Made by a program: the position numbers and the translations under genes. A model generated the notes under the pieces. It was given only the letters and a program-made list of their open reading frames with translations. It did no database searches and had not been told where the DNA came from. 64,000 nt of DNA from the sequence record NZ_CP104306.1, one strand, 5' to 3'. Positions 41,000-57,682 of the stretch are shown here, piece by piece (the first letter of the stretch is position 1; the number at the start of each line of letters is the position of its first letter). This DNA comes from a plasmid.

Positions 41000-42302
41000 C
41001 ATGATGCCCACCAACCAATCCGGCGCGATCAATTGCGGTCGCGCCTTTTTCTTTGGAGTAGCCCCGAACAATTGCTTTGTAGCCATATAGCTGACGAATC
41101 TTGTCAATTGTTTGATCTAACAAAACGTTTGCTTCCTCCTTCTCTGCTGATTCAAATAGACTAAGTTGCATCGAGCTTGCAAGACTGATGCGATTAACAC
41201 GAACTGAAACATTTCTGACGGCATGGCCGTTCCACTTACTATGGAAGAGATAGCGAGCGGCGCGAATCAAATCGTCAGTGCGGTTTGTGGGATCAATCTT
41301 CATTTGCGCACCGAAACCGGAGGTGCCCGCTTCTTCTGCATCAGCATAACCAATTCCAACGCTAACCACTTCACCTTGTACTTGATGGTGACGAAGTCGG
41401 CCCGCCACTTGATCAGCAATCTCGCTAAGCACGACTTCAATCTCCCTTGCCTGCGTGTAATCACGCATGAGTACCTGACTATTGCCATAGCCTTTGTTCT
41501 CAGCGCGTGGCAAATAGCGACGAGTCAAATCCGAGTAATCAATACCCCACGAATGGAAATACAAGGCATCGCCGAGAACGCCGAAGCGTTGATGTAATAA
41601 AAGCCGATCGGTGTGTGCAAGATCATAGAGGCTGTGAATGCCTATTGCATTAAGCTTTTTTGCGGTACGGCTGCCGATTGACCAGAAATCGGCCAAGTCA
41701 TGTAGTTGCCATATGGTTTCGGGTACCCGGTCGTAAGTCCAAGTGGCTTGCCACGGAGCGGCTTTCTTGGCTTCGTTATCGAGAGCCAGTTTTGCCAGTA
41801 GAGGATTCTGACTAATACCAACGGTCGTGATAATGCCAAACTGATCGAACACCTTTTTTTGAATTTGCGTTGCGATTTCTTGATTAGAGCCGAAGAGATT
41901 ATGTGAGTGGGTGACGTCAATAAAGGATTCATCAATAGAATAAGGGTACCAATGAGCATCGTCAGTAAACTGGCGATAAATACGATTAATCCCGTAGTTC
42001 TTGCGAATATAATCCGCCATCCGTGGTTCGGCCAGTTCAATCTGCATGTCGTCCCGCAATTGAAAGCGGCGCGTGCTCAAGCCAACATGGTAACGTTTCT
42101 TGCAGTTGGGACTAGCAGCTAACACCAGGCCGCCAGGAGAATCGCCTTTGCTAAGCACGGCAATATCAGCTGCCAGCGGGTGAATGCCGCGTCGAATGGC
42201 CTCAACTGATGCGTAAAAGGACTTGCAGTCAATACACATGATGTCGTGTACCGGTAGTCTCGTTGGATCATCTAGTGGCGTGGTCATGCTAACGCCCACC
42301 AC
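40995..42302 (-). CDS. umuC: Y-family translesion DNA polymerase (UmuC/RumB-like)
   Basis: N-terminal IMCIDCKSFYASVE catalytic region. Little-finger region. 435 aa. Confidence 0.85.
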   Translation of the reverse strand: MVGVSMTTPLDDPTRLPVHDIMCIDCKSFYASVEAIRRGIHPLAADIAVLSKGDSPGGLVLAASPNCKKRYHVGLSTRRFQLRDDMQIELAEPRMADYIRKNYGINRIYRQFTDDAHWYPYSIDESFIDVTHSHNLFGSNQEIATQIQKKVFDQFGIITTVGISQNPLLAKLALDNEAKKAAPWQATWTYDRVPETIWQLHDLADFWSIGSRTAKKLNAIGIHSLYDLAHTDRLLLHQRFGVLGDALYFHSWGIDYSDLTRRYLPRAENKGYGNSQVLMRDYTQAREIEVVLSEIADQVAGRLRHHQVQGEVVSVGIGYADAEEAGTSGFGAQMKIDPTNRTDDLIRAARYLFHSKWNGHAVRNVSVRVNRISLASSMQLSLFESAEKEEANVLLDQTIDKIRQLYGYKAIVRGYSKEKGATAIDRAGLVGGHHG

Positions 42303-42669
42303 CGGTCAGGATTGAGCAAAGCTACGTTACGAATATCAGCGGCATTGACTGATTGGGTGTCGCCGTTCTTGAGTTGTAAATAAACCTGATCGTCCCAATG
42401 ACCAATAACGGCGCCCTCAATATCTGGTAGCAACCGATCATCGTAGGGTGTGCCAATTTGAACGGCTACGATTTTTGCATTTTGCCAGGCATCTTCAAGG
42501 ATGTCGCTAATGGTTTCTTGAGACTGTTCTGGCTTTGGTTCGACAGGACGTTCAGAAATGGAAGCTTTCTCCATATAGGCAGAATGATCACTGAGAATCC
42601 AACCGAGCCATTTCTTCATGCCGCGATCAGGATAAAGCCACTGTTCTCTAGGTACATTGTTTTCCATCA
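42284..42669 (-). CDS. yolD: YolD-like protein (UmuD analogue), upstream of umuC
   Basis: Start MMENN has GGAGGTG upstream. YolD-like C-terminal region. Overlaps umuC by 19 nt. Confidence 0.6.
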
Positions 42670-42771
42670 TGAACACCTCCACATCATAATTATACGAACA
42701 CATGTTCGATTAGTCAATGAGAGCTACTTGCTTATATCCCAAATGAGATATATAATTTAGAGGAAGCAAAA

Positions 42772-42981
42772 TTGTCAAATAGGAGGCAGATATTGAAGCT
42801 GAGAGACAAAGTACAAGCGTTGCTTGACAGTGATGCTACGTCCTATGCAATTGCTAAGGAAACCGGGATCAGCAATTCAACAATCGTGGAGCTACGGCAT
42901 GGCAAAAGAAAACTCAGCAACATCACATTGAAGGTTGCTGAGCGATTAGGGGAATATTATGACACGCACCAGGCAAAATAG
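42772..42981 (+). CDS. Small HTH regulator, divergent from yolD-umuC
   Basis: TTG start with AGAGGAAG upstream. TSYAIAKETGISNSTIVELRHGKRKL is an HTH. A -10 TATAAT lies at about 42760. Confidence 0.45.
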   Translation: MSNRRQILKLRDKVQALLDSDATSYAIAKETGISNSTIVELRHGKRKLSNITLKVAERLGEYYDTHQAK

Positions 42982-43002
42982 AAGCTGTCGTATTCGTTAA
43001 GA

Positions 43003-43425
43003 CTATGGATTCTTCACTAGCGAATGATCTACTTTAACCATCGTGAAAGATGCCTGTGTTGTGCCACTCTGAACGGAACCTGAAATTGTATTACCGTCAG
43101 ACTTTGAAATGGTAAATACTGTGTTTGGGTTATTGGAATCTGAGCTAATAAGCTCGAATTGAGAATTGCTCAGATATTTGACGGAGCCAAGTTTGTCTTT
43201 GGAAACAGTGTATTGTCCATCGTTTTGTTCAACATTGTAGACGTTTGTGTCTGTAAACTTAAGCGGAGTAACTTGATCGTAATTGCTCATTTTTACATTC
43301 CAAACATTGTTTGCCAACGTTTGTTGTATACTTTTTGGCCATAAGAAGACTGCCAATATAATAATGGCAAACAGAGCAACTAAAATGGTTATAATACCAT
43401 TGCGTGATTTGATTTTGTTGATCAA
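43003..43425 (-). CDS. Membrane-anchored hypothetical protein (140 aa)
   Basis: N-terminal transmembrane helix. Beta-rich extracellular part. Confidence 0.45.
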   Translation of the reverse strand: MINKIKSRNGIITILVALFAIIILAVFLWPKSIQQTLANNVWNVKMSNYDQVTPLKFTDTNVYNVEQNDGQYTVSKDKLGSVKYLSNSQFELISSDSNNPNTVFTISKSDGNTISGSVQSGTTQASFTMVKVDHSLVKNP

Positions 43426-43671
43426 ATGACATCACCTATCTTTCATAGTTTTAAAATCATTCATAGACTAAGCATAACATTATTCACAAAGAGATAATTT
43501 ACAACCAGATATCCAGAGGCATTAGACGAGCATCATTAAGGCACACTAAATCAAACTCGGAGAAGAATGATGCATTGAGATGTACTGTCAGAACTTCAAT
43601 AGCGGTGATTTCATTTTCTGGATTTCAAAGAGTAGCTTGCTAACTATAAGTAACGCAAGGAGGAAGGAAAT

Positions 43672-44232
43672 ATGAAAGCTGTGGAAGGAGTTGCGATTTA
43701 CTTAAGCGGTGTTTTTTCTCAAGTAATAGTAACCTTGTTTCAAAATTGGATCAAACGTCGACAACAGCGTAGCGAACGCATAGGGGAAGCATTTGAAAAT
43801 ATTTATGGTGATTGGCAGGAAGTGTTAAGCTTCCTAGGAAAAGTGAACGACAATTTCAAAAACTGGCAGAAATGGAACGATGAAAACTTGGCAAATCCTA
43901 ATTATTATGATGACAATCAAATTTATGAACCCAAACCAGTGATGGAGCAGAAAAGTTTTCAAGAAAAGTTTGAAGATGCTGCAAAATCATTTAACAAAAT
44001 TAGTAAGGTAATAAATGAGTTTCAACTTTTTCTTACCGACAAACAACGCAGCAAGGTTATATTGGCAATGGATACCATTGATAGCATGCTTCGTGATATA
44101 GATCAGTTATGTTTTGTATATGGAGAAGAAAACTACGTTGATGATGAAGATCTACCTTACAATGCTGACAAAGCCAAGATTTTGAGAGATGCAGATCGTG
44201 TGATTAAGAATAAGGCTAAAAGGGGAGTGTAG
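43672..44232 (+). CDS. Hypothetical protein (186 aa)
   Basis: RBS AAGGAGG precedes the start. No recognised motif. Confidence 0.45.
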   Translation: MKAVEGVAIYLSGVFSQVIVTLFQNWIKRRQQRSERIGEAFENIYGDWQEVLSFLGKVNDNFKNWQKWNDENLANPNYYDDNQIYEPKPVMEQKSFQEKFEDAAKSFNKISKVINEFQLFLTDKQRSKVILAMDTIDSMLRDIDQLCFVYGEENYVDDEDLPYNADKAKILRDADRVIKNKAKRGV

Positions 44233-44671
44233 AGTATCATCAGTTGAACCTTTAAGCAGTTATATTTTTAGACGAATGAGGAACAACCTCAAAGTAGCCA
44301 AAATTAAAAAAGAAGAGATTGCGTGTTGCACTCTCCAATTATGCTAGTGTGTCCTTTCGGGCAGGTTTTGTTATCCGAAAAGTCCCTAACTTGCGTGGCT
44401 CATTTTTTAGTGTGTCTAGCTCTAAATGCTGTAATTTAATTAGTGGCCGGTGAAAGCTTATGCATTTCCCGATAGATCAACACTTAAGCAAGCAAACACA
44501 GGAGTTTTGATGTATGGCTATTCGCCAGTTTAGTATACTTGTTCGCACTTTATCCCTTTGAACATGAATAAGTTCAAACTGGGAACGCAACATCTCAAAT
44601 TTCACATTTATTTTGTATGATCACAAGTACTGATCCATCAACGATCTCTTGTTGGATCTGCCTTTACTTCC

Positions 44672-45718
44672 TAGATTGCAATAATAAAGTTACCACCTAG
44701 AAAGAGGCTTGCTCACTGCTTGAACTGGGGTTTGCCAACGGAGACATTTTCTAGGTTTGTTATTGATAAGCGCTGTGGCTTGTTGAATATCGGTCTCTGA
44801 AACCTGATCAAACTGTGTTCCCTTCGGGAAATAGTAGCGAAGTTCTCGATTGAACCGTTCATTTGTGCCCCGTTCATTCGGGTGATAGGCGTGGCAAAAG
44901 TAAACCGGTATCCGATAGCGCTTTGTAAGCGCCTGATCGCAGGAAAACTCTTTACCGTGATCAACCGTCACTGATCGAACCGGACCCGGAAAGTCCACCA
45001 TCAGTCTTGCAAATCCCTTGAGAACAGCATTTTGTGATAAGTTTTCAAGCTTAGTTGTCGCCATTAAACGTGTCACCCGATCGACAATGGTCAAAACAGC
45101 AGCCTTTGACCCGCGACCACCGCGAACTGTATCCATCTCTAAATGTCCTTTTTCGGTTCGCCGGTTAGCTGACTCACTGCGAATCTCAATTGAGGTGCCT
45201 ACTGCTTGGTTATAGCGCGACCGAAGGTCTTGTCTACTTTTATGACGTTTACCGTGATCAAAGAGTTGGCTTGGCTGAAAATCGACTTGTCTTTGATAAA
45301 TCCAGTGGTAAATCGTGTGTGGCGCACAGTGAACGGCATAACCGACCATTTCAGGGGACCAACCTAGGTTTAGCTTCTCAGTTACCATCCGCTTCAACTT
45401 AGGCGTTAAAATCGAGTGCCGACCACAACGATGCCGACAAGTATCGGCATGATCCTGAGCTATAATGGCGCAGTAATCACCTTCAGGGCAACGGTGAAGC
45501 TCATGCCTAATAGAAATACGAGAGCGGCCTAAGGTCGCGGCGATGTATTGAATCGTGTGATGTTGCATCAGTTCTATCTGAGATCGTTCAATTAAGGTTA
45601 TAATGGCCATGGGACCTGTCCTTCTCTCTAGATGGTATGTTATGCAAACACCATTTTAGCAAGAACGGACAGGTCTTTTTTCACATTTTCTGGGTGGTAA
45701 CTTTAATTATGCAATCTA
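44672..45718 (-). mobile_element. IS30-family insertion sequence, copy 1 (1047 bp)
   Basis: Terminal inverted repeats TAGATTGCAATAATAAAGTTACCACC (outer) and GGTGGTAACTTTAATTATGCAATCTA (inner). Near-identical to the copy at 50729..51775 in inverted orientation. Confidence 0.8.
44690..45610 (-). CDS. IS30-family transposase (306 aa)
   Basis: N-terminal HTH. DDE region ...MDTVRG... typical of IS30. One substitution (S versus R) relative to the second copy. Confidence 0.9.
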   Translation of the reverse strand: MAIITLIERSQIELMQHHTIQYIAATLGRSRISIRHELHRCPEGDYCAIIAQDHADTCRHRCGRHSILTPKLKRMVTEKLNLGWSPEMVGYAVHCAPHTIYHWIYQRQVDFQPSQLFDHGKRHKSRQDLRSRYNQAVGTSIEIRSESANRRTEKGHLEMDTVRGGRGSKAAVLTIVDRVTRLMATTKLENLSQNAVLKGFARLMVDFPGPVRSVTVDHGKEFSCDQALTKRYRIPVYFCHAYHPNERGTNERFNRELRYYFPKGTQFDQVSETDIQQATALINNKPRKCLRWQTPVQAVSKPLSRW

Positions 45719-46008
45719 GGACTTCAACTGTTTATAAGCGTTTTGTATCAATATCCAGAAAAAAATATAAAGCTTTCACCAGCCACTAATAAGTTTTGAA
45801 TCAGGCAAGCCACAGAAGGGATTTATTCGGCCTTGATCAACATTCGTCATTCAGATAGTTTCACGGCACATGAAAAACGAGATTGAAATTACAAAGTCAT
45901 CGTTCCCTTATGAGAAATCGTTGAAAAAGAAATATAAAGCAGGCGCCGTATGCTGAAGTTGCAAAGTGTCACCGTGCACCGCTGGCAAAGCATTAAAAAT
46001 TATTAGGG

Positions 46009-47892
46009 GTGATCCTCATGTCAATAGAGAATAAGGAACGTCTTTGGTTGCTATCATTTATGGCTGCCTTTTTGGTTACGGTTGTTGTTGGTATTGTGAT
46101 CACTAACTACCAATATGGCGGGAAAGCGTATTACATGACGATTGATAACACGCCGACTATCACACGCGTCGCCGTCCCTGTCGGAATCACTGTACGAGGC
46201 TATACATATCAGGGAACGGCAAGAGACGCACAAGGACAGACAAAGAAGCTTAAGTTCAGCACGAATGAGCGTGACACTGGCCCATTTAGAAAAAATCAGC
46301 AAGTAAAAATCACGGTGAACAAGAACTTTGGCGTTGTGGGTTATCAGAGAGTACAAGGGCAGGGAGAGCCCGGTGTAGGTGATGTATACAGGTCATTAAA
46401 TCTAACCGTAGGAAAGGTGCTACCTCTTTCAGCTCTGACTGCAATCACGGCCACCCTTTTGAGCTTGCTTATTCCTCTCGCCATTTTTCTACAAAAAACG
46501 CCAGACTCGGATGCCGTTGAAACAGCAACAATTCAAATTAGAATAATCAACGTTAAAGTCTTGGTATATGCCTTTACTTTTATCTGTTTTGCCTTTCTTT
46601 TGTGGGGAATAGACTCAATCAAAATTATACTTTTACTACCATATAGCGTAGGTGTAATTCTCATACTTTCAACCCTTGTTAAGTCAGTAAGATGGATAAC
46701 AGACTGGAGCTGGGAACCTGAAACAGGATTTCGCAGCATACAAGAGAACAAAGTAATCAAAGAGTCCAAGTTAACTACTAACCAACGTAAGTTAGTTTGG
46801 GAAAGGATGCTAAATTCTGATAATAGGATTAAAGTAAACCAGGCGGGTAAACTTGTAGAACTATTTGACATAAACTATCAGTATTTTGATACTGAAGGGC
46901 AAGTTTGGATGATTGAAACAACATTCAGATACATTAACGAAGATTACTCAAAGGGCGGTTGGTGGAATTCAGATTTTTTTAAATATTCATTTGAAAAGTT
47001 ATTGGCATCAGTTCAAAAACAAACTGAAGCTAATACCACAAATAAAAATGTATCGACTACAGCATATGAGTATTCCCAAGAAGAAATTGTATGGATAGAA
47101 TATTTAAACAAAACATGCAAACTGATTGAAGAAAATGGAAGCCAACAGGACCTAATCCCGGAAGCTATTAAATCAAATATGAAATATGTTGACAACAATA
47201 AAGCAAAAGAATTTATTTCTAATTGTATTTTCGACTATTGTCGAAATTCAATCGGCTTGGTTTACCAAGACTTTGGAAATGAATGGGAAATTAGTTATCA
47301 AGAATTAATTAAGGACGAAAAACAAAATAATACACAGTGGGTATTGCTAGATACCTTCCTAAATCACATGAGAAATGAGATGATGAACGACTATAACACA
47401 AATTCACATAGGCAGTATGCAAACAGTAATGATGCAATTTTTGAGAACCTTTTTAAGGATGCGGATTCTATTTTATTTGGTAGGCTTGAAACACTCTTTT
47501 TCACGCTCGATGTAGATGGAGAAAACGGCACAGATTATATTGCATATGTGCGTCAAATCCTCTTAAAAAGGCAAGCTTTTGGATATTGGCAAAGAATATG
47601 GGATCGTGCTGGAATATTGACCGAAGTACAAAAACAGTCAGCCATTGAGGCATCGAGAACTAAAAGGCAATTGGAAACCTTAAAAATTGGAACATTAATT
47701 TATCCTCAACTTACAAGTGAAGAAGCATATAGAAAGTACACGATTAAAATTCAGAGTTGTTTTGATATATTAATTCGGGAAGAGAAAAATCAAGAAGACA
47801 GAGCAAGTCAGGTCCTTAAGTCAAAAATAGAATCATTAAAATCAACGATTGATAGAATATCAATACTGCAAAGGCAAATACCAAATTCATAG
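46009..47892 (+). CDS. Uncharacterized 627-aa membrane protein in AT-rich DNA (candidate phage-defence / Abi-like, unproven)
   Basis: Layout is transmembrane helix, about 100-aa extracellular beta-rich loop, three transmembrane helices, then an about 400-aa cytoplasmic domain. Markedly lower GC than its flanks. Two 17-18-bp direct repeats lie upstream (45758, 45925). Confidence 0.55.
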   Translation: MILMSIENKERLWLLSFMAAFLVTVVVGIVITNYQYGGKAYYMTIDNTPTITRVAVPVGITVRGYTYQGTARDAQGQTKKLKFSTNERDTGPFRKNQQVKITVNKNFGVVGYQRVQGQGEPGVGDVYRSLNLTVGKVLPLSALTAITATLLSLLIPLAIFLQKTPDSDAVETATIQIRIINVKVLVYAFTFICFAFLLWGIDSIKIILLLPYSVGVILILSTLVKSVRWITDWSWEPETGFRSIQENKVIKESKLTTNQRKLVWERMLNSDNRIKVNQAGKLVELFDINYQYFDTEGQVWMIETTFRYINEDYSKGGWWNSDFFKYSFEKLLASVQKQTEANTTNKNVSTTAYEYSQEEIVWIEYLNKTCKLIEENGSQQDLIPEAIKSNMKYVDNNKAKEFISNCIFDYCRNSIGLVYQDFGNEWEISYQELIKDEKQNNTQWVLLDTFLNHMRNEMMNDYNTNSHRQYANSNDAIFENLFKDADSILFGRLETLFFTLDVDGENGTDYIAYVRQILLKRQAFGYWQRIWDRAGILTEVQKQSAIEASRTKRQLETLKIGTLIYPQLTSEEAYRKYTIKIQSCFDILIREEKNQEDRASQVLKSKIESLKSTIDRISILQRQIPNS

Positions 47893-48084
47893 ATTGCAAT
47901 AATAGAGATACTACTTTGCAAGAGGCTTGTTCACAGTTTCTGATGAAGATTTGAGGAAGCTAGAAAATGCAATGGATAATGTGAACAAAAAATGAATTGG
48001 CAACATTAAGGTGTACCCTATTGTAACTAAAGTGAGAAGGGAGTATTATTAGTTACATATAAGTGACCCGGAGGCGACCTAGAA

Positions 48085-48735
48085 TTGGCTAAAATCGGTT
48101 ATGCGCGTGTTAGTACGCGTGATCAAAATCTTGCACGTCAAATTGAACAGCTACATGATGCCGGTGTTAATAAAATCTTTCAAGAGAAGCTTTCAGGTAA
48201 AAATGCCGATCGTCCTCAACTAAAAGCAATGTTAGACTATATTCGTGATGATGATGAAGTAGTGGTATTGAGCCTTGATCGACTTGGTCGCAATTCTCAT
48301 GATTTGACTGACATCATCGAAACCATTCGCCATCGTGGAGCTCAATTGAATGTTCTAAATCTGCCTAGCTTTGCAAGTATTGAAGATCCTAACCTTCGTA
48401 ACTTGATTACGACAATTATTGTCGAACTATATAAGTATATTGCTCAAGAAGAGCGCGAAACTATTAAGATACGGCAACAACAAGGCATAGAAATTGCCAA
48501 ACGCCAGGGCAAATATAAGGGCAAAATTCGCGAATATGGTCCTCATTCACCTAATCGTCAAAAACGCTATATTTATAAAGAAGCCTGTCGCCTTTTAAAT
48601 AGGAAGAAAGACGGAGATGAAACTCTGACCAAGCGACAAATTGCTCGCATGTTAGGTATTGCACCAGTAACCTTATATCGCATCGAAAAGTACCAGGCAG
48701 AAGATCTAGCAAACGTTCCCCCTAGTGAGAGGTAA
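48085..48735 (+). CDS. Serine recombinase (resolvase/invertase family) with a C-terminal HTH
   Basis: MAKIGYARVSTRDQNLARQ catalytic Ser region. DRLGRN motif. C-terminal HTH RQIARMLGIAPVTLYR. Confidence 0.85.
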   Translation: MAKIGYARVSTRDQNLARQIEQLHDAGVNKIFQEKLSGKNADRPQLKAMLDYIRDDDEVVVLSLDRLGRNSHDLTDIIETIRHRGAQLNVLNLPSFASIEDPNLRNLITTIIVELYKYIAQEERETIKIRQQQGIEIAKRQGKYKGKIREYGPHSPNRQKRYIYKEACRLLNRKKDGDETLTKRQIARMLGIAPVTLYRIEKYQAEDLANVPPSER

Positions 48736-48740
48736 ACATC

Positions 48741-49025
48741 ATGATAGATTTAAGGGGCAAACGAATTCTCTTTACCGGCCGTTTGCGATCTTTTCGTCGT
48801 TTCCAGGCACAACAGTTAGCAACTATTCTAGGAGCAAAACCTGTCAACGGGATTGACAAAAATGTCGATATCCTTGTGGTTGGTATTATTAGCAAACCCT
48901 ATGATCAACTACTTACTACTCAAAAGTTAACGTATGCTAGAACCTATGGCATTCCAAAGATTGACGAATTAGCCTTTATTTCATGGTGCCAATGGCGATT
49001 AGATCAATTGAAAACAACTCTTTAA
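48741..49025 (+). CDS. BRCT-domain small protein
   Basis: ILFTGRL...AQQLATILGAKPVNGIDKNVDILVVG resembles the C-terminal BRCT of NAD-ligase. Confidence 0.45.
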   Translation: MIDLRGKRILFTGRLRSFRRFQAQQLATILGAKPVNGIDKNVDILVVGIISKPYDQLLTTQKLTYARTYGIPKIDELAFISWCQWRLDQLKTTL

Positions 49026-49054
49026 GTACCTTCTTATCAAACGGGGAGATTAGT

Positions 49055-49387
49055 ATGCAAAAGCGTATCGATTTGGCCAATCAAACGTTTGGACGACTCA
49101 CAGTCATTAGTTTTTTGGGAAGCAGTTCTAATGGAAACGCGCTTTGGCTCTGTCAATGTCAATGTGGAAATAAATGTATTGTTGACAGTCAACGACTTCA
49201 AAAAGGATTCACTCGCAGTTGTGGGTGTTTGCGATCAGAAATAAGCAGATCAAACATAAAAGCTAATAACCAGACTAAAAAATACATGGGCAATCCTAAG
49301 AATTTTCAACTAATTAATCGAACAAATTTAGTTGCTTCTACACTTAAACGATCCAATAACAAATTCGGCATGATAGGTATTAGTTAG
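49055..49387 (+). CDS. Zinc-ribbon protein (110 aa)
   Basis: Start has GGGGAGA upstream. FGRLTVI...LWLCQCQCGNKCIV...SCGC gives a Cys4 pattern. Confidence 0.45.
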   Translation: MQKRIDLANQTFGRLTVISFLGSSSNGNALWLCQCQCGNKCIVDSQRLQKGFTRSCGCLRSEISRSNIKANNQTKKYMGNPKNFQLINRTNLVASTLKRSNNKFGMIGIS

Positions 49388-49705
49388 GCTAAAACGACTC
49401 AAAATTAGGTAGCACAACTTCACTTTCAAAGCCATCTTAATAAACCGTGTATATGTTCATGCGGAGGGTGCAATCGCTGCTCCAAAGACAGCAAAAAAGG
49501 ATATCATTCCTTTGCAAGAGCAATATAATCAATCACACCAACAAAATTAAACAAATTGATCAGACAATCCGAGTAGGCGCAAATCCCATTGCTTATACTG
49601 CCGATGAACCTATAGAAAAGGCGCTTCGTCATAAAATGGTTCAGTACTGTAATCCTCCAAATGGCATAAATATTAAGACTAGTTTTCAAGAAAGGAAGCC
49701 GTAAC

Positions 49706-50077
49706 GTGCGTTTATGGCATCAAGATTTAATTCAGCAACTCCCAAGACAACAATTATTGGGACAGCATCGTGAAATCGCGGCGCTTCGCGGTAATGGATG
49801 GGGACGGAAACACGCTACCGTTAATTACGTATTTGCACATTCCCCATATAAATTATTTCAATTTCACTGTATTGTGTTACGTGAAATGGAAAAACGAGGT
49901 TATCATCCAGATCAGAAATGGTATGATCCTCTGTATCGAGGTCAACATTGCCCAGCATACAAACAACTCAATCCGGTTGCACTCACAATACCCATCTATC
50001 CTGAGCATGACCAACGATATAAACATGTTTGCTTAACCAATTTACAAAACAAGGGAATCTTTTTAAACCTTCCGTGA
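49706..50077 (+). CDS. Pyrimidine-dimer DNA glycosylase-like protein (T4 endonuclease V / TIGR02328-like)
   Basis: GTG start after GAAAGGAAG. N-terminal MRLWHQDLIQQLPRQQLLGQHREIAALRG matches the bacterial DenV-like family signature (from memory). Confidence 0.5.
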   Translation: MRLWHQDLIQQLPRQQLLGQHREIAALRGNGWGRKHATVNYVFAHSPYKLFQFHCIVLREMEKRGYHPDQKWYDPLYRGQHCPAYKQLNPVALTIPIYPEHDQRYKHVCLTNLQNKGIFLNLP

Positions 50078-50171
50078 TCCTAGTCTGCGATGTTCATCTT
50101 GGGACATAGGATTGACAAAATAGTATCTCAACAATATATTTACTAAAAGTAAATAAATAGCCAGTATTACG

Positions 50172-50588
50172 TTGATAGGAGAAAATCAAATGGTAAACCT
50201 TACAGAAGAAATGAAAAATATGTTAAAGAATCAGCTCCCCTTTCTAGCAACAACAGGAAAAGATGGCAAACCTCAAGTTGGTCCCAAGGGTTCACTACAT
50301 GTCTTAGATGACTCACATTTAATCTACTTTGAGCATACCTTCAGGCAAGCCTATGATAATCTCTCGAGCAACCATTTGGCGGCGGTTGCGGTTGCTGATA
50401 GAGGCGCTCAAAAGGGATTTCGCTTTGAGGGAACGGCTCATATTCATGAAGCAGATGACTTTGCTAATCAGATTCTAGATAAAACTAACATCTTTGATCG
50501 TTTCCCACGCGCTGGCGTGGTGGTCATTGATGTTGAACGAATCTATAAATTGGATAATACCTTAGAAGCTGGTATTCAAATCGCCTAG
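50172..50588 (+). CDS. Pyridoxamine 5'-phosphate oxidase-like FMN-binding split-barrel protein
   Basis: LPFLATTGKDGKPQVGPKG...FRFEGTA pattern typical of the PNPOx-like / general stress protein 26 family. Confidence 0.6.
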   Translation: MIGENQMVNLTEEMKNMLKNQLPFLATTGKDGKPQVGPKGSLHVLDDSHLIYFEHTFRQAYDNLSSNHLAAVAVADRGAQKGFRFEGTAHIHEADDFANQILDKTNIFDRFPRAGVVVIDVERIYKLDNTLEAGIQIA

Positions 50589-50728
50589 GGTTTTTAAAAC
50601 AAATTCAACCGAGTAAGTCGAAGAACTTTTTAGTGTCCAAACTCATACAGTGTTTATTTCATGTCATTAAGTATTCATTAGCAAGCAGTTTTGTTATACT
50701 TTGGTTAGAAGTGATAGAAGTACGTCCC

Positions 50729-51775
50729 TAGATTGCATAATTAAAGTTACCACCCAGAAAATGTGAAAAAAGACCTGTCCGTTCTTGCTAAAATGGTGTT
50801 TGCATAACATACCATCTAGAGAGAAGGACAGGTCCCATGGCCATTATAACCTTAATTGAACGATCTCAGATAGAACTGATGCAACACCACACGATTCAAT
50901 ACATCGCCGCGACCTTAGGCCGCTCTCGTATTTCTATTAGGCATGAGCTTCACCGTTGCCCTGAAGGTGATTACTGCGCCATTATAGCTCAGGATCATGC
51001 CGATACTTGTCGGCATCGTTGTGGTCGGCACTCGATTTTAACGCCTAAGTTGAAGCGGATGGTAACTGAGAAGCTAAACCTAGGTTGGTCCCCTGAAATG
51101 GTCGGTTATGCCGTTCACTGTGCGCCACACACGATTTACCACTGGATTTATCAAAGACAAGTCGATTTTCAGCCAAGCCAACTCTTTGATCACGGTAAAC
51201 GTCATAAAAGAAGACAAGACCTTCGATCGCGCTATAACCAAGCAGTAGGCACCTCAATTGAGATTCGCAGTGAGTCAGCTAATCGGCGAACCGAAAAAGG
51301 ACATTTAGAGATGGATACAGTTCGCGGTGGTCGCGGGTCAAAGGCTGCTGTTTTGACCATTGTCGATCGGGTGACACGTTTAATGGCGACAACTAAGCTT
51401 GAAAACTTATCACAAAATGCTGTTCTCAAGGGATTTGCAAGACTGATGGTGGACTTTCCGGGTCCGGTTCGATCAGTGACGGTTGATCACGGTAAAGAGT
51501 TTTCCTGCGATCAGGCGCTTACAAAGCGCTATCGGATACCGGTTTACTTTTGCCATGCCTATCACCCGAATGAACGGGGCACAAATGAACGGTTCAATCG
51601 AGAACTTCGCTACTATTTCCCGAAGGGAACACAGTTTGATCAGGTTTCAGAGACCGATATTCAACAAGCCACAGCGCTTATCAATAACAAACCTAGAAAA
51701 TGTCTCCGTTGGCAAACCCCAGTTCAAGCAGTGAGCAAGCCTCTTTCTAGGTGGTAACTTTATTATTGCAATCTA
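50729..51775 (+). mobile_element. IS30-family insertion sequence, copy 2 (1047 bp), inverted relative to copy 1
   Basis: Same inverted repeats as copy 1. The two copies bracket 45719..50728. Confidence 0.8.
50837..51757 (+). CDS. IS30-family transposase (306 aa)
   Basis: Identical to the copy-1 protein except for one residue. Confidence 0.9.
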   Translation: MAIITLIERSQIELMQHHTIQYIAATLGRSRISIRHELHRCPEGDYCAIIAQDHADTCRHRCGRHSILTPKLKRMVTEKLNLGWSPEMVGYAVHCAPHTIYHWIYQRQVDFQPSQLFDHGKRHKRRQDLRSRYNQAVGTSIEIRSESANRRTEKGHLEMDTVRGGRGSKAAVLTIVDRVTRLMATTKLENLSQNAVLKGFARLMVDFPGPVRSVTVDHGKEFSCDQALTKRYRIPVYFCHAYHPNERGTNERFNRELRYYFPKGTQFDQVSETDIQQATALINNKPRKCLRWQTPVQAVSKPLSRW

Positions 51776-51895
51776 GGCGTCTAATTCTTAAGAAACCCGT
51801 AGCTTACTGTTAACGCCATTACTTCGAGCGTGTCGATTTTCGATACGCCTTTTTTTGTGTTATTGGATAAAAATCATCCAATAAAAATGAAATAT

Positions 51896-51929
51896 CAAAA
51901 AAGACGACTTCTACTATGGAAAGTCGTCT
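51896..51929 (-). terminator. Rho-independent terminator downstream of srtC
   Basis: AGACGACTT(10 nt)AAGTCGTCT stem followed on the minus strand by TTTTTTGATATTT. Confidence 0.55.
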
Positions 51930-52116
51930 CTGATGAACCCGTTTTTCTAATACTCATTCATGTTGCATCGTCTTGCTTCAAATGCTTGAAATATACAGAC
52001 ATAGTGTTTAAATAAGTTGGCCGGTTTCAGTTTATTAAACTCAATATCAGTCTTAAAATATTGATTCTTTCCTAATTTAAAGTAACCCAAAAAGATATTA
52101 GACAAATTTTGAGATC

Positions 52117-53196
52117 CTAATGATCTTCTTTTAATTGAAAGCTTTTATCCCGAACTTTTTTGACATAAGCCTTATACTTAGTCTGGCCAAGTGGCGTGAC
52201 AATTACGACTCGATAATGATTACCAGGCAGGCTGATGTCAGTCACCCCAGTTTGATCTGATTTAAAAGAATGTATATGTCGACCTCGTTTCACCACGACC
52301 TGTGTGGCTTCAGCCGGTACTTCCAGCAAATAATGCTTTCGGCCAAGCATCAAACTGCGCATTACGAAACCGATCACGCCTAAAATGATCACCGCGCCTA
52401 AAAGTGCGACTATTAGCTTTAATTTGTTCCACCAAACCGCCCAACTTGAGGCCTCGTCATCTGCCTTAACGTAAGGAATTCGGCGACCCGTTATCAACAA
52501 TCGATGAGAATTAATCATATAAGGCGTGCAGGTCATTAAGGTCACAAGATCCTGTCCCGGCACAATTCTTAGCTGACGGGTATCACTTGGCTCAATAACC
52601 TGGCGCTTAAAGACTTGGTAAGCCAATTTATGATTGCCTATGCTAATAAAAAACTTGTCGCCTTTTTTTAACGCTGGTACTCGGGTAAAAAGTTCAGCGT
52701 TTGGCACACCACGATGCGCTGAAATGACAGCATGGGTATTTTTACCACCAGTTGGATAACTTGTACCATCCAATAAACAGGCGCCAAATTGTAGAAGCCA
52801 ATCGCTTGTATGATCAAAAACCGGCAGACTAAGGCCAATTTTGGGAATCGTCAACTGAGCAACTGTCTGACGAGTCAAGATTTGTTGATTGCGTTTGGCC
52901 GCTGTTTTTGCGGTTCCTTGATCATTAACGGCATGATTAAAACTGGCAACGCCGGGCACTTGCTGACTTGCTGCCAACTGTTTATTTTTTTGCTGATAGT
53001 CGTTATATTCCCGCCGCAACACGATCTGATTCTTCCGCGCTTCTTGTTGTCGATACCTGTCGATGACTTGCTGATTTTGGTAAGAAACGTAAGCATCACT
53101 TGCAAATGGATAGCATAAAACACCAAAACCCGCTAAAAGAAGGCATCCAATCACAATATCAATCAAGCCTAAAGGTCGACGTGTTCGTTTTGTCAC
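52117..53196 (-). CDS. srtC: Class C (pilus-specific) sortase
   Basis: N- and C-terminal transmembrane segments. TLMTCTP active-site motif. Last gene of the pilus operon. Confidence 0.85.
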   Translation of the reverse strand: MTKRTRRPLGLIDIVIGCLLLAGFGVLCYPFASDAYVSYQNQQVIDRYRQQEARKNQIVLRREYNDYQQKNKQLAASQQVPGVASFNHAVNDQGTAKTAAKRNQQILTRQTVAQLTIPKIGLSLPVFDHTSDWLLQFGACLLDGTSYPTGGKNTHAVISAHRGVPNAELFTRVPALKKGDKFFISIGNHKLAYQVFKRQVIEPSDTRQLRIVPGQDLVTLMTCTPYMINSHRLLITGRRIPYVKADDEASSWAVWWNKLKLIVALLGAVIILGVIGFVMRSLMLGRKHYLLEVPAEATQVVVKRGRHIHSFKSDQTGVTDISLPGNHYRVVIVTPLGQTKYKAYVKKVRDKSFQLKEDH

Positions 53197-53269
53197 TCTG
53201 ATTACCTCGCCATATCAAAACAAGAGCGCCATCGACGCTCTTGCTTGACTCATTTATCTTATTAACTTT

Positions 53270-54274
53270 TTAGAAACCATTGCGGCGCTTGCGATAGGCA
53301 ACTGCTCCAAATGCAATTAAGGCAACGCCCAAAATCGCAAAAATGACTGTGCCAGTACCACCAGTGTGTGGCAGAATACCGCTTGGTGCATCTAGAATGT
53401 CGCTAGACGAATTATCAGCTTTAAAGTCTGTATTGGCAGCAGCATCATAACCATCCGGCACTTTTGTTTCAACTGCCGTGTAAGTTGTGGTGTTATCAGC
53501 AAATCCATTTAAGCCAAACTTACCGCTCTTATCAGACGTGAAAACAGTAGCATCGCTTTCAGCAACCCACGTCAATCGATAGTTATTGGCCAATACATCG
53601 ATAAATCCTTCGCCGATGCTGACGCTTTGACCATCTTTATCTGTCAACTTCAAAAACTTGCCATCACTATTGCTAATCTTAAAGCCGGCTCCTTCAAGCA
53701 CTTCTTTAGTCTCAGCATCTTTCTTAACAAAAGTGCGCTCATAGGTGGTCTTTTGAACATTCTTTGGGTAGACATAGACATTCCCGTCGGCTGCTGCCTT
53801 GGCTGGTAAGGTTAACCAGAAATCGGCAGACGTGTTATAACCAGCTCGCGGATTGGTTTCATGGAAAAGATAGACAGCAGCACGAGTCTTACCACTGGCA
53901 TCTTTTGATTGGGTAGGTAATGCTTGGGTTAGTTGCCCCTTGTCATTAGTCGTACCGGTTGCGGCAACCGGAGCACTATCAAAACTGCCTTTATAATCCT
54001 TAGGCGATGCCCAATAATTGGCTGTCACGTTGTAAATGGTGAAATCAACGCCTTGTAAAGGCTTAGCACCATCGCCGGTCCAAATTTGATCAGTCGCACG
54101 ATCAATGGCAGTAACATCTTTGTCAAACCCGTATTTAGTAAGGACAACGTTTTGTGTTGTCGTATCATTCGTATCTGCTTGAACCCGAGTGCCATTAAAC
54201 CCGAGAACCATCAGTAATGTCATTAGGATCGTGCTGGTTAATGTCAGCACTTTCTTGGCAATTGTCTTTTTCAT
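53270..54274 (-). CDS. spaA: Major pilin SpaA (334 aa)
   Basis: Start MKKTIAKK has GGGAGAG upstream. YPKN pilin motif (VYVYPKNVQ). E-box YTAVETKVPDGY. LPHTG sorting signal. Confidence 0.8.
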   Translation of the reverse strand: MKKTIAKKVLTLTSTILMTLLMVLGFNGTRVQADTNDTTTQNVVLTKYGFDKDVTAIDRATDQIWTGDGAKPLQGVDFTIYNVTANYWASPKDYKGSFDSAPVAATGTTNDKGQLTQALPTQSKDASGKTRAAVYLFHETNPRAGYNTSADFWLTLPAKAAADGNVYVYPKNVQKTTYERTFVKKDAETKEVLEGAGFKISNSDGKFLKLTDKDGQSVSIGEGFIDVLANNYRLTWVAESDATVFTSDKSGKFGLNGFADNTTTYTAVETKVPDGYDAAANTDFKADNSSSDILDAPSGILPHTGGTGTVIFAILGVALIAFGAVAYRKRRNGF

Positions 54275-54276
54275 TC

Positions 54277-55002
54277 TTATCTCTCCCACTTATTAATTTT
54301 TTGGTTTTTTATGTTAAAAGCAAGTACTGTCGCGAAGATTATCAACCCGAGCATTGAAAGCCAAGCTGCAACTGTATCACCCGTTTGTGGCAACAATTGA
54401 CGTATTTTCTTTGGAACTTTTTTGGGGGCATCGGTGTGACGACTTACCATTTTGTTCTTAGGAAATAAATCAATGCGTGATTGATTCCCATGTTGAAGGT
54501 TGCTTGACATGACAACCACAAGATTCTGACTGGCTTCAATATTTTTAGGTGCTGCCGTTTCTTTAAAAAGATAAACCGCAGCATGCTGCCCCTGTCGGAG
54601 TGGTAAATCGCCAAAGTACGCTTCTCCCTGACCAGCCGTCACAACCTGTGCGATAAGGCTGGAGCTAGCAGGCTGATAGCTATCTTGACTCAACGTCGTT
54701 TGTGCTGCTTCAATCGCACCGCCATTTTTGGAGACAAGCTGCCAAAAGTCAGCGGTCACGTCATAAACTGTGAACGTCACACCGTTTAACGGCACATCTG
54801 CCTGCGAAAAGTCGGGTTTTGTTGTCCCGTTATTTGCTTGTTGAGTTGGCAAGGTATCTTTAAACAACAGCTTATGCAACACAACATCAACAGTGGTCGG
54901 CACAGTTGCCGCCTGTGTCTGCTGCAACGTTGTCGTTGCCAAACTGACTAGTAGTGCCAAGCAAAAGGTCAAAATCACTAACGGACGGAAGGATTTAGTC
55001 AT
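54277..55002 (-). CDS. spaB: Minor/basal pilin SpaB (241 aa)
   Basis: Signal peptide. LPQTG followed by a hydrophobic segment and a basic tail. Confidence 0.75.
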   Translation of the reverse strand: MTKSFRPLVILTFCLALLVSLATTTLQQTQAATVPTTVDVVLHKLLFKDTLPTQQANNGTTKPDFSQADVPLNGVTFTVYDVTADFWQLVSKNGGAIEAAQTTLSQDSYQPASSSLIAQVVTAGQGEAYFGDLPLRQGQHAAVYLFKETAAPKNIEASQNLVVVMSSNLQHGNQSRIDLFPKNKMVSRHTDAPKKVPKKIRQLLPQTGDTVAAWLSMLGLIIFATVLAFNIKNQKINKWER

Positions 55003-57682
55003 GTTGCTTCACCACCCGTCGCTTTATCAAAACAACCAGTAATAAAAGGAACGCTGCGCTGATCAATCCCAGTGCGATACCAAGCAATCGCTGATAGCCC
55101 TGACCACCTGTATGTGGCAAAATTGCAAGTGGCTGATTAATCGCCTGCAAAGTGATCGTGCTGCCATCAATCGCTAATGTGTATCCGTTCTTACTTTCGC
55201 CCGGCTTCAATGCCTCACCGTCAATCGTGACGGTTGCCTCTTTACCAGTCGTAGCTACCTGAATGGCAATCTTGGCAGGATTGCTTTGATAGCCATCTGG
55301 TGCTTTTGTTTCTGACATCGTATAGGTACCATCTGCAATTAACTTTGTTGCAAACGCTTGTCCCTCAGATGTCGCCGATGATGTTATTGTCTCAGCTTCC
55401 CCAGCACTTGGTTGCAGGGTGAACGCTGCACCTGCAAGATATTGGCTTTGATTATCCTGTTTGATGACCCGCAAAGTCATGGATGGCTTTGGTTCATCGT
55501 ATTTCGTTAGCGTCAGAATTTGCTGGTGATCCCCGGTCACCGTAAAATCATCTGACTTATCACCAACAGGATTCAAAGTCTGCTGGCCATTAATAACACT
55601 CCCTGATGTCACATTGTCCTTTGTGCCATGGTATTGCCATTGCCCATCAGACGTTAGCTGAAAAAGATACGTTGTCCCATCAAGTTGATAACCTGTAGGT
55701 GCTGCAGCTTCCTGAATACCGTAATACCCCGGCGCTAGTGCCTGCAGATCCGTTGACGTGATGGCGTTGGTTTTGGATACCTGCTGAAAACTGTTATCGC
55801 TGTACTGGGTTAAGTTAAACTGCATGGCCTTCAACTGATCTGTTGATAAATCAGTACCATCGGTTGTTTTTTTCTGAAATTGAAAACCATACTGCTGATT
55901 TGTCAAAGTCAACGTTGCTGTTTGCTGATCCATATTTTGAGAACTGATAAACGAACTCAAATCAATTCCCGAGGCATCTTCACTCTTAACGACATATGAA
56001 AAACTTTGACCCTGATTGTTATACGCAGGTGCCGTAAAGCTAGCTTTCCAGTTATCAGCTTTTTTAAGGACTAAGGTCTGTTGCCAATTTGGATCAAGCG
56101 AACCGTCAGCCACTTTTCGCTGCACCGTGACGTTGAGCGTATCCGGTAACGATTGATTGCTTAACTGGCGCCATTGCTTCTGCACATAAACTGTAGTTGC
56201 TGGTGCCCTGCCTGAAGGAATCCCAAAGTCAACAGCGGCAGCGCCCGCTTTTGGTGTCAACAATGTTTCACCATTCATTTGGTACCAAAAATCAGGCTTG
56301 AAGCCACCATCCTCTGTTTTGATCCGGACTTGATAATGGATTTGAACTTCCTGATCCTGACCCAAGTTCATGTGATTCACCGTCAATTGACCATCTTGGA
56401 TCGCCGCACTTGGCAACTCACTTGCTGGCACAGTTTGCTTGCCGACACTCGTAACGGTCGCCTGGTTGTTCGCATATTGAAATTGCGTACCAATCGGGTC
56501 TGTGATCGTGCCGTCGGTGACAGTATTAAAGTTTTTGATAATGTCCTTTGCCTGATTGTGCAAATAAGCCTCAACAGCATCGGCACTATCAGCATCTTCG
56601 TATAAATCCGGTGAATTGGTAATAAGCTGCATGTTTTGGCGTATTTTTTCTTTCGTCATGTAGTGGTCGTCGTCAGCCAGTTGGATGCCTAACGCGTGCA
56701 CCTCATTACCACTATCCTTTGCTATCTTGGCCTCACCCAATGTTGCTGGCCAAGTATCATATATATAATGACCTGAACGATCGGTGTATGGCCATCGAAG
56801 TCGTGCGGTGTTCTCTGGTTCATCTCTGCTGGATCCAAAATTAGTGCCATACAATGTGCCATTTATCCACTCTGAATTCATCACCTCGTTAGAAAAAGTC
56901 GGCACGCCATCAGTTAACAAAATCATCATTTTTTTATTGCCACTGGTGTCCGCATTCAGCATGGCTGATCCTTGCCGCAAACCAATCTGCGTATACGTAG
57001 CCCCTTGAAACCTTGGACTCAATGCACCATTAATCGCTTGTTGCTGGCTGGCATTACCTGCTTTGCCTAATTTGACACTAATATAACCCGAGTTGCCACC
57101 GATATAACCAGGACTAGAAAACCCAATTAAACCAACATTGACGTAATTACCCAGACCGGCGTTTTGAATAGAAGTCAAGAAATTCTTAACGCCAGTACGA
57201 ACAGCACCAGCTCGATTCGTGCCCCATCTGTTTGACTCCATTGACCCAGACATATCAACAACTAAGACAATATCTACAGGCTTCACATTTTGCTGTGTAT
57301 TGCCTTTGACGTTCAAATAAACGTCGTACAATCCGGGGGTATTCGTCTCTTTAGCATATTTTCGAATCTGATAATCCGGATTATTGGGGTCACCAAATTT
57401 CAGGTAAGAATTCGTGGTATCAGTCGCATCACCATTCCATATTGTATTGTTATCCCACCCTGAAACTTGATCACCGCCACGTTGATTGATTACATTTTGT
57501 TGTCCCGTGACCTGCCACGAATTTGTCGGATAGGTACCATTAGCATCGGTTTGATAGGTTGGGCGAATGTTAGCAGTGGCTGTCACAACTGAACTGCCAC
57601 TTGTCACTAAGCCTGTTAACATACTCATCAAAATCAATAAGACCGCGAACAAATGCCCAGTTCTCGCCACTTTAGCTGTCAT
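54995..57682 (-). CDS. spaC: Pilus tip adhesin SpaC with a von Willebrand factor A domain (895 aa)
   Basis: MIDAS motif VVDMSGSM. C-terminal CnaB-like region. LPHTG sorting signal. Confidence 0.8.
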   Translation of the reverse strand: MTAKVARTGHLFAVLLILMSMLTGLVTSGSSVVTATANIRPTYQTDANGTYPTNSWQVTGQQNVINQRGGDQVSGWDNNTIWNGDATDTTNSYLKFGDPNNPDYQIRKYAKETNTPGLYDVYLNVKGNTQQNVKPVDIVLVVDMSGSMESNRWGTNRAGAVRTGVKNFLTSIQNAGLGNYVNVGLIGFSSPGYIGGNSGYISVKLGKAGNASQQQAINGALSPRFQGATYTQIGLRQGSAMLNADTSGNKKMMILLTDGVPTFSNEVMNSEWINGTLYGTNFGSSRDEPENTARLRWPYTDRSGHYIYDTWPATLGEAKIAKDSGNEVHALGIQLADDDHYMTKEKIRQNMQLITNSPDLYEDADSADAVEAYLHNQAKDIIKNFNTVTDGTITDPIGTQFQYANNQATVTSVGKQTVPASELPSAAIQDGQLTVNHMNLGQDQEVQIHYQVRIKTEDGGFKPDFWYQMNGETLLTPKAGAAAVDFGIPSGRAPATTVYVQKQWRQLSNQSLPDTLNVTVQRKVADGSLDPNWQQTLVLKKADNWKASFTAPAYNNQGQSFSYVVKSEDASGIDLSSFISSQNMDQQTATLTLTNQQYGFQFQKKTTDGTDLSTDQLKAMQFNLTQYSDNSFQQVSKTNAITSTDLQALAPGYYGIQEAAAPTGYQLDGTTYLFQLTSDGQWQYHGTKDNVTSGSVINGQQTLNPVGDKSDDFTVTGDHQQILTLTKYDEPKPSMTLRVIKQDNQSQYLAGAAFTLQPSAGEAETITSSATSEGQAFATKLIADGTYTMSETKAPDGYQSNPAKIAIQVATTGKEATVTIDGEALKPGESKNGYTLAIDGSTITLQAINQPLAILPHTGGQGYQRLLGIALGLISAAFLLLLVVLIKRRVVKQHD

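What the first reader, a model, noticed from the sequence alone, without database searches (positions are those of the whole stretch)
44672..51775. Inverted IS30 pair forming a composite-transposon-like unit
Two 1047-bp IS30 copies (one amino-acid difference) face each other with transposase-proximal ends inward. They enclose a large membrane protein, a recombinase, BRCT and zinc-ribbon proteins, a glycosylase-like gene and a PNPOx-like gene. The unit could move as a block. Homologous recombination between the copies would invert the cargo, and the right-hand copy abuts the spaCBA pilus island.
Basis: seen in the sequence. Interest (0 to 1): 0.55.

Follow-up and report, generated by a model that had tools for sequence, protein, structure and literature searches.

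The report
Two independent IS30 insertions, not a transposon
Two near-identical copies of a common lactic-acid-bacteria jumping gene sit in opposite orientation on a pilus-encoding Lacticaseibacillus plasmid, but each landed separately, so the 5 kb between them is ordinary plasmid DNA and not a unit that has moved as a block.

Summary
Two 1051-bp IS30-family elements lie at 44670-45720 (transposase on the minus strand) and 50727-51777 (plus strand). They differ at 5 nucleotides and 1 amino acid. The transposase genes diverge, and 5006 bp separate the copies.

Each copy has its own 4-bp target duplication: ACTT|IS|ACTT on the left and CGTC|IS|CGTC on the right. The outer flanks, ACTT and CGTC, do not match.

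Nine related plasmids, pLOCK919 among them, carry the right-hand target uninterrupted with a single CGTC. In those plasmids recombinase-BRCT-TIGR02328-PNPOx runs straight into srtC-spaABC. The right copy is therefore a secondary insertion that splits a conserved block.

Four base pairs is this element's usual duplication length. The two copies are no closer to each other (5 differences) than to copies on other plasmids (4-8).

The intact duplications also argue against a net inversion by recombination and against intramolecular replicative transposition. Future block movement or inversion is possible but has no evidence behind it. No empty site was found for the left copy. This is ordinary insertion-sequence biology and of low interest.

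The parts
44670..45720 (-). Left IS30-family element, 1051 bp. The IRR end is at 44670 (outer) and the IRL end at 45720 (inner). It has 34-nt imperfect terminal inverted repeats (30/34).
44690..45610 (-). Transposase of the left copy, 306 aa (Ser125)
   Evidence: NCBIfam NF033563 transpos_IS30, 226.5 bits against a cut-off of 80. Pfam rve..
44666..44669 (.). Left copy target duplication, outer half (ACTT)
45721..45724 (.). Left copy target duplication, inner half (ACTT)
46009..47892 (+). 627-aa YxeA/DUF1093-domain membrane protein. It is full length and rare.
47888..47939 (.). Relic, about 52 bp, of the IRR end of a diverged IS30-family element (81-84% identical to the intact IS). It lies in direct orientation with the left copy and supplies the stop codon of the 627-aa ORF.
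48003..50726 (+). Left part of a conserved Lacticaseibacillus plasmid block: serine recombinase 48085-48735, BRCT 48741-49025, Cys-rich ORF 48983-49387, TIGR02328 49706-50077, PNPOx 50172-50588. It is 92-99% identical in the nine plasmids compared, and the block continues into srtC-spaABC.
50723..50726 (.). Right copy target duplication, inner half (CGTC)
50727..51777 (+). Right IS30-family element, 1051 bp. The IRL end is at 50727 (inner) and the IRR end at 51777 (outer).
50837..51757 (+). Transposase of the right copy, 306 aa (Arg125)
51778..51781 (.). Right copy target duplication, outer half (CGTC)
   Evidence: a single CGTC at this site in nine plasmids.
51828..51931 (.). Convergent terminator-like hairpins: plus strand 51828-51848 for the PNPOx transcript and minus strand 51931-51900 for the srtC-spaCBA operon. 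Both lie outside the right IS, so the pilus operon is untouched.
   Evidence: consensus scan only
52117..57682 (-). srtC-spaA-spaB-spaC pilus cluster. In related plasmids it is the continuation of the block split by the right IS.

Best explanation
These are two separate simple insertions of an active, widely shared IS30-family insertion sequence into a conjugative, spaCBA-carrying Lacticaseibacillus plasmid. The element is 1051 bp and ISLpl1-like in size and host range, but that name was not verified.

The right copy inserted at a CGTC. That site lies 138 bp downstream of the PNPOx gene, upstream of that gene's terminator, in the spacer between the convergent PNPOx and srtC genes. It split a conserved block: recombinase-BRCT-(AP2)/TIGR02328-PNPOx-srtC-spaABC.

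The left copy inserted at an ACTT, 288 bp upstream of a rare YxeA-domain membrane-protein gene. This lies in the variable region that these plasmids carry to the left of the recombinase.

Each insertion duplicated 4 bp, as expected for copy-out/paste-in insertion of a single IS (mechanism inferred from the family, not shown here). Because both duplications are intact, several things follow. The 7.1-kb unit has not transposed as a block. The 5-kb segment has not undergone a net inversion between the copies. The second copy did not arise by intramolecular replicative transposition. No gene is disrupted.

The pair is a coincidental bracket. It could act later as a substrate for inversion or, less certainly, for composite transposition.
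For: 1. Each IS has its own flanking direct repeat: AAGT/AAGT and CGTC/CGTC in IS orientation. The chance of two 4-bp matches is about (1/256)^2.

2. Nine plasmids carry the uninterrupted right-hand target with one CGTC. Their flanks are 95-100% identical (ungapped) to the window's, and the flank alignments overlap by exactly 4 bp. The plasmids are NZ_CP118051, NZ_CP050503, NZ_CP104305, NZ_CP029537, NZ_CP102717, NZ_CP022956, NZ_CP101832, pLOCK919 NC_021722 and N1115 NZ_CP007125.

3. Four base pairs is this IS's duplication length. Of 14 distinct complete copies in metagenome contigs, 4 have exactly 4-bp repeats (about 0.05 expected by chance) and none has 3 bp.

4. In the closest backbone plasmid (NZ_CP029537; 95.8% over window 20000-43486), the same gene order from the backbone through the recombinase module to spaCBA has no IS at either position.

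5. The block p20-p17 plus srtC-spaCBA is described as conserved between pLOCK0919 and the L. rhamnosus GG chromosome (PMC4758243).

6. The two window copies differ at 5 sites, and each differs from copies on other plasmids at 4-8 sites. The pattern is star-like, with private substitutions in each copy. Neither is a fresh copy of the other.

7. No plasmid in PLSDB shares either inner junction, so these are strain-level insertions.

8. The transposase meets the NCBIfam IS30 equivalog cut-off.
Against: - No empty site could be found for the left copy. Searches of plasmids, genome contigs and metagenome contigs found nothing. Its status as a simple insertion therefore rests only on its 4-bp direct repeat.
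- An even number of inversions would also leave the duplications intact.
- The only independent confirmation of the left junctions comes from Logan contigs of a single run, which is probably the same strain.
- Nothing here measures the transposition or recombination activity of these particular copies.
Confidence: 0.9

Rival explanations
1. This is a composite transposon. The two IS30 copies and the 5 kb between them arrived in this plasmid, or have moved, as one 7.1-kb block using the two outer (IRR) ends.
For: Two intact, near-identical IS copies bracket a segment. Their outer ends are in the inverted geometry that any transposon needs. IS30-family composite transposons exist, for example Tn6330 (PMC5821093).
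Against: - The outer flanks are ACTT and CGTC, so there is no shared duplication.
- Each IS keeps both halves of its own duplication. Block transposition would have replaced the outer halves (logic as set out for Tn6330 in PMC5821093).
- The right boundary cuts a block that is contiguous in nine plasmids, with the target site intact.
- Tn6330, the composite in this family that I checked, has directly repeated copies using one IRL and one IRR end. Here both outer ends are IRR.
Confidence: 0.03
2. The second, inverted copy arose by intramolecular replicative transposition in trans. This would have duplicated the IS and inverted the intervening DNA in a single step.
For: That pathway yields two inverted IS copies bracketing a segment. 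It is documented for IS26 and Tn4401 (PMC4471558).
Against: - That pathway leaves the target duplication in inverted orientation, with one half next to each IS copy. Here each copy has a direct 4-bp repeat on both of its own sides.
- The segment from 48003 to 50726 has the same orientation relative to srtC as in the nine IS-free plasmids.
- The copies differ at 5 positions.
- The copy-out/paste-in pathway described for IS30-family elements (PMC5821093) is not this replicative pathway.
Confidence: 0.02
3. The segment is an actively flipping invertible region, driven by homologous recombination between the two 1051-bp inverted copies. The assembled sequence shows only one isoform.
For: 1051 bp at 99.5% identity in inverted orientation, 5 kb apart, is an adequate substrate for RecA-dependent recombination (general knowledge). 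Nothing here excludes a minority isoform.
Against: - The assembled state is the parental one. Each IS has matched flanks, and the cargo is oriented as in the IS-free plasmids.
- Five differences persist between the copies, with no sign of homogenisation by gene conversion.
- Neither orientation would give an obvious regulatory benefit, because both ISs lie in intergenic DNA.
Confidence: 0.1

Closest known systems
ISLpl1 / ISPp1-type IS30-family insertion sequences of lactic acid bacteria
   Same: - An IS30-family DDE transposase of 306 aa.
- Length of about 1.04-1.05 kb, with terminal inverted repeats of about 30 nt.
- Copies 99% or more identical on plasmids of Lacticaseibacillus and Liquorilactobacillus, with further matches in Lactiplantibacillus, Pediococcus, Levilactobacillus and other genera.
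- ISLpl1 (1043 bp) and ISPp1 (1039 bp) are the IS30-family elements reported in L. paracasei genomes (PMC9818903 and PMC10815930).
   Different: - This element is 1051 bp. A 1042-bp variant at 97% identity occurs in L006-L008.
- I could not compare it with the ISfinder reference sequences, so the name is unverified.
- It makes 4-bp target duplications. Two base pairs is called typical of the family in PMC5821093, and 2-3 bp is my recollection of ISfinder.
IS-rich surroundings of plasmid and chromosomal spaCBA-srtC clusters (pLOCK 0919, L. rhamnosus GG)
   Same: The block srtC-spaCBA plus PNPOx, AP2/TIGR02328, BRCT and recombinase is the same, and IS30-family elements lie nearby (PMC4758243).
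   Different: In pLOCK919 the IS30 copy lies directly upstream of spaC, at window-equivalent 57729, where it has been discussed as a promoter source. Here there is no IS upstream of spaC. Instead one copy lies downstream of srtC, beyond its terminator, and a second lies 5 kb further on.
Tn6330 (ISApl1-mcr-1-pap2-ISApl1), the IS30-family composite transposon checked here
   Same: Two copies of an IS30-family element bracket a few kb of passenger DNA. The window resembles the pre-mobilisation stage proposed for Tn6330, in which each IS still has its own duplication (PMC5821093).
   Different: - Tn6330 has direct, not inverted, IS copies.
- It has a shared outer 2-bp duplication at each new site.
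- It has been seen at many independent locations.
- None of these holds here.

Membership tests
IS30 family insertion sequence | DDE transposase of the IS30 type (N-terminal HTH plus rve catalytic core) | tested here: met
   NCBIfam NF033563 transpos_IS30 equivalog at 226.5 bits against a cut-off of 80. Pfam rve at 37.6 bits against a cut-off of 32.6.
IS30 family insertion sequence | Single-ORF element of about 1.0-1.3 kb, bounded by imperfect terminal inverted repeats of about 20-30 bp | tested here: met
   The element is 1051 bp with one 306-aa ORF. The termini match at 30 of 34 positions (CCTAGATTGCA...).
IS30 family insertion sequence | Short target-site duplication. Two base pairs is called typical in PMC5821093. 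The figure of 2-3 bp is my recollection of ISfinder. | tested here: inconclusive
   A short duplication is present but is 4 bp. This is shown by nine empty sites for the right copy and by 4 of 14 other copies. That is one base longer than the quoted range.
Composite (compound) transposon | Two IS copies bracketing passenger DNA | tested here: met
Composite (compound) transposon | A single target duplication flanking the outer ends of the whole unit | tested here: not met
   The outer flanks are ACTT and CGTC. Each IS has its own duplication instead.
Composite (compound) transposon | The same unit found in different sites, with the passenger DNA not otherwise contiguous with the flanks | tested here: not met
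   No other record has either inner junction. The passenger DNA from 48003 to 50726 is contiguous with the right flank in nine plasmids.
Composite (compound) transposon | Demonstrated mobility of the whole unit | not testable with these tools
   This needs a mating-out or transposon-trap experiment.
Invertible DNA segment (recombination between inverted repeats) | Both orientations observed in a population or among related genomes | tested here: not met
   Only the parental orientation is seen. The cargo is oriented as in the IS-free plasmids and the duplications are matched. Minority isoforms cannot be assessed without reads.

The most novel reading that the evidence does not exclude
The pair could be a nascent mobile or invertible module caught before its first move, like the pre-Tn6330 stage. 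In this reading, two freshly inserted IS copies can now mobilise a serine-recombinase module plus a very rare YxeA-domain membrane protein, using two IRR ends. Alternatively they could flip the segment next to the pilus operon. Relatives of that protein sit beside AbiH or AAA_15 ATPase genes, which hints at a defence role. Separately, this IS would be an IS30-family member with a consistent 4-bp target duplication.
Probability: 0.08. Interest if true: 0.3.

Novelty: already known. Interest (0 to 1): 0.1.

Why it matters
It matters little beyond correct annotation. The result shows that the DNA between the two IS copies is not a transposon cargo. It is partly the left half of the conserved recombinase-to-spaCBA block of Lacticaseibacillus pilus plasmids and partly a variable-region gene.

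The pilus operon and its terminator are untouched. For people tracking spaCBA mobility or the stability of probiotic strains, the practical point is this: inverted IS copies cannot delete the segment by homologous recombination, only invert it. This arrangement therefore does not by itself threaten pilus-gene retention.

The 4-bp duplication length is a small, useful fact for annotating this IS.

Tried and rejected
- Left-copy empty site: a reconstructed 1.6-kb empty site found nothing in PLSDB. Exact flank patterns found nothing in GTDB genome contigs or JGI metagenome contigs.
- Exact-protein look-ups for the two genes flanking the left copy returned only short Logan contigs from run SRR21285516. 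These end inside the IS and are probably the same strain.
- L010 carries a 53%-identical homologue of the 627-aa gene. Its DNA similarity to the window begins only at window 45787, so it gives no precise empty site.
- I considered that the 627-aa ORF was truncated by the old IS relic at its stop codon. I rejected this because three homologues end at the same column.
- I looked for palindromic target sites, as reported for IS30 (from memory). Symmetry is 12/28 on the right and 6/28 on the left, which is not convincing.
- The promoter scan found 24 sites against 21 ± 5 expected, so it is uninformative.
- PADLOC found no convincing defence-family match for any cargo protein.
- The original ISLpl1 paper (AEM 2003) is not held, so the published duplication length for ISLpl1 could not be checked.
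- The ISApl1 mechanism paper did not say whether two IRR ends can be used together.
Full report
**What is in the sequence**

A repeat search finds one long inverted repeat in 40000-56000. Its arms are 44670-45720 and 50727-51777, 1051 nt each, 5006 nt apart. Base-by-base comparison gives 5 mismatches. The two 306-aa ORFs (44690..45610 minus, 50837..51757 plus) differ at one residue, S125R.

Each arm ends in 34-nt imperfect terminal inverted repeats, CCTAGATTGCA..., matching at 30 of 34 positions. A 28-nt pattern of that terminus hits only these four ends in the 64-kb window, against 0 expected. The ORF scores 226.5 bits on NCBIfam's IS30 transposase equivalog, whose cut-off is 80.

The length is 1051 bp, not 1047 bp. 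The bounds are 2 bp wider at each end. The transposase genes diverge, with start codons on the inner side, rather than facing each other.

**Context**

The window is a Lacticaseibacillus conjugative plasmid. Window 20000-43486 matches L. paracasei LC355 plasmid NZ_CP029537 at 95.8%, including its VirD4/pLS20-type transfer genes. Window 52117-57682 encodes srtC, spaA, spaB and spaC.

**Test 1: target duplications**

Read in IS orientation, the left copy is flanked by AAGT on both sides and the right copy by CGTC on both sides. On the plus strand these are ACTT at 44666-44669 and 45721-45724, and CGTC at 50723-50726 and 51778-51781. The outer flanks of the pair, ACTT and CGTC, do not match.

Is 4 bp a real duplication length for this element? 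Nine related plasmids carry the right-hand target uninterrupted, with flanks 95-100% identical (ungapped) to the window's. Their alignments to the two flanks overlap by exactly four bases, a single CGTC.

In metagenome contigs, 4 of 14 distinct complete copies of the same IS have exactly 4-bp direct repeats and none has 3 bp. About 0.05 such matches would be expected by chance. By contrast, none of six copies on the related plasmids I fetched has any repeat longer than 1 bp. Matched flanks are therefore not a default property of copies of this IS.

Two copies, each with its own intact duplication, are the signature of two simple insertions.

**Test 2: is the cargo a unit?**

It is a mosaic.

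Window 48003-50726 holds the serine recombinase, BRCT protein, Cys-rich ORF, TIGR02328 protein and PNPOx. This stretch is 92-99% identical in the nine plasmids compared, and more than 100 Lacticaseibacillus plasmids match the ~100 bp at its left edge. In all nine plasmids that I examined it runs, without any IS, straight into srtC-spaABC or into the first 77 bp beyond the target (N1115).

The pLOCK 0919 paper describes exactly this block (p20-p17 plus srtC-spaCBA) as shared with the L. rhamnosus GG chromosome (PMC4758243). The right IS copy has thus split a conserved block. It does not delimit a cargo.

The insertion lies 138 bp after the PNPOx stop codon. It is upstream of terminator-like hairpins for both convergent transcription units (consensus scan only), so the pilus operon is intact.

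The other half of the cargo, 45721-48002, has no close match in PLSDB. It encodes a 627-aa protein with an N-terminal YxeA/DUF1093 domain, several hydrophobic helices and an unannotated C-terminal part of about 400 aa. Only four relatives exist among 5.8 billion proteins, and they end at the same residue, so the gene is full length.

A 97%-identical copy sits on another L. paracasei contig. There, similarity to the window starts only 16 bp upstream of the gene, and the gene is followed by an AbiH gene.

A 52-bp relic of a diverged IS30-type IRR end (47888-47939) supplies the gene's stop codon. The relic travels with the gene in that other contig.

**Test 3: relationship of the two copies**

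The two window copies differ at 5 positions. Each differs from copies on five other plasmids at 4-8 positions, and each carries private substitutions. They are independent descendants of a common, recently spreading master element. Neither is a fresh copy of the other, and there is no sign of homogenisation by gene conversion.

Copies 99% or more identical occur on Lacticaseibacillus and Liquorilactobacillus plasmids, and further matches occur in Pediococcus, Lactiplantibacillus and other genera. No PLSDB record shares either inner junction of the window, so both insertions are strain-level events.

**What this excludes**

- *Block transposition.* It would have replaced the outer halves of the two duplications with one new shared duplication, as set out for Tn6330 (PMC5821093). 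That has not happened.
- *Intramolecular replicative transposition in trans.* It creates an inverted second copy and inverts the intervening DNA. It leaves the duplication in inverted orientation with one half at each IS (PMC4471558). That is not the pattern here, and the cargo keeps the orientation seen in the IS-free plasmids.
- *A net inversion by homologous recombination.* It would mismatch the flanks of both copies. They are matched, so the assembled state is the parental one. An even number of flips cannot be excluded.

**Mechanism and likelihood**

The best explanation, at about 0.9 confidence, is two independent copy-out/paste-in insertions of an active ISLpl1-like IS30-family element into intergenic DNA, giving a coincidental bracket. 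The insertions and the 4-bp duplications are shown directly. The copy-out/paste-in chemistry is inferred from the family. The name ISLpl1 or ISPp1 is suggested only by size and host range and was not verified.

Future inversion of the 5-kb segment is plausible on general grounds. Composite transposition would need two IRR ends to be used together. Tn6330, the composite in this family that I checked, uses directly repeated copies, and I found no data on the IRR-IRR configuration.

**Limits**

No empty site was found for the left copy. Its simple-insertion status rests on its 4-bp repeat alone. The only independent sequences covering the left junctions are short Logan contigs from one run, which is probably the same strain.

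**Verdict**

Novelty: already known. Interest: low.

Noticed in passing
window 46009-47892 (+); L009 122-3429; L010 1450-6152: The 627-aa protein has a YxeA/DUF1093 domain, then transmembrane helices, then an unannotated C-terminal region of about 400 aa. It is extremely rare: 4 relatives in 5.8 billion proteins. Its relatives sit next to AbiH (L009) or AAA_15/AAA_23 ATPase genes (L010), which hints at a phage-defence neighbourhood. It has no PADLOC hit.
   Followed up: partly
window 47888-47939; L009 1990-2038; L010 3788-3908: A relic of about 52 bp from a diverged IS30-type IRR end provides the TAG stop codon of the 627-aa ORF. The same relic accompanies the gene in another L. paracasei contig. 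In a more distant relative a related relic lies upstream of the gene instead.
   Followed up: partly
window 50723-50726 / 51778-51781 and 44666-44669 / 45721-45724; metagenome loci L016, L040, L104, L114: This IS30-family element makes 4-bp target duplications. Two base pairs is called typical of the family in PMC5821093, and 2-3 bp is my recollection of ISfinder. About half of the surveyed copies have no duplication at all, which suggests frequent IS-mediated rearrangement.
   Followed up: yes
window 48003-48084: Similarity to more than 100 Lacticaseibacillus plasmids begins abruptly at 48003-48007, about 80 bp upstream of the serine recombinase gene. A perfect 9-bp inverted repeat, TGTAACTAA / TTAGTTACA (48022-48030 and 48049-48057), lies there and is a candidate res/crossover site. 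To the left of this point, different plasmids carry different cargo: toxin-antitoxin, GH3, nrdEFI, type I R-M, methyltransferase and IS30.
   Followed up: no
window 59876-63750 (-): This looks like a Gabija defence pair: a 696-aa AAA_15 ATPase with an OLD-type TOPRIM domain, followed by a 595-aa UvrD-type helicase.
   Followed up: no
window 58980-59378 (-): A 132-aa ORF matches only the C-terminal end (positions 236-354 of 354) of the Schlafen group 3 helicase domain. It is probably a gene fragment upstream of spaC.
   Followed up: no
window 48983-49387 (+) and 49447-49704 (+): The Cys-rich 134-aa ORF (CQCQCGNKC...SCGC) occupies the position of the 170-aa 'AP2 domain-containing protein' (p18) of pLOCK919. 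It is probably a truncated allele of that gene. The 85-aa ORF after it has no family match.
   Followed up: partly
L013 (NZ_CP007125, N1115) 4539-6193; L012 (pLOCK919) 11582-12632: Other plasmids carry the same IS at other positions around this block. In N1115 a copy replaces everything beyond 77 bp past the target site, so there is no spaCBA. In pLOCK919 a copy lies directly upstream of spaC. Neither copy has a target duplication, which is consistent with IS-mediated deletion or rearrangement around the pilus genes.
   Followed up: partly
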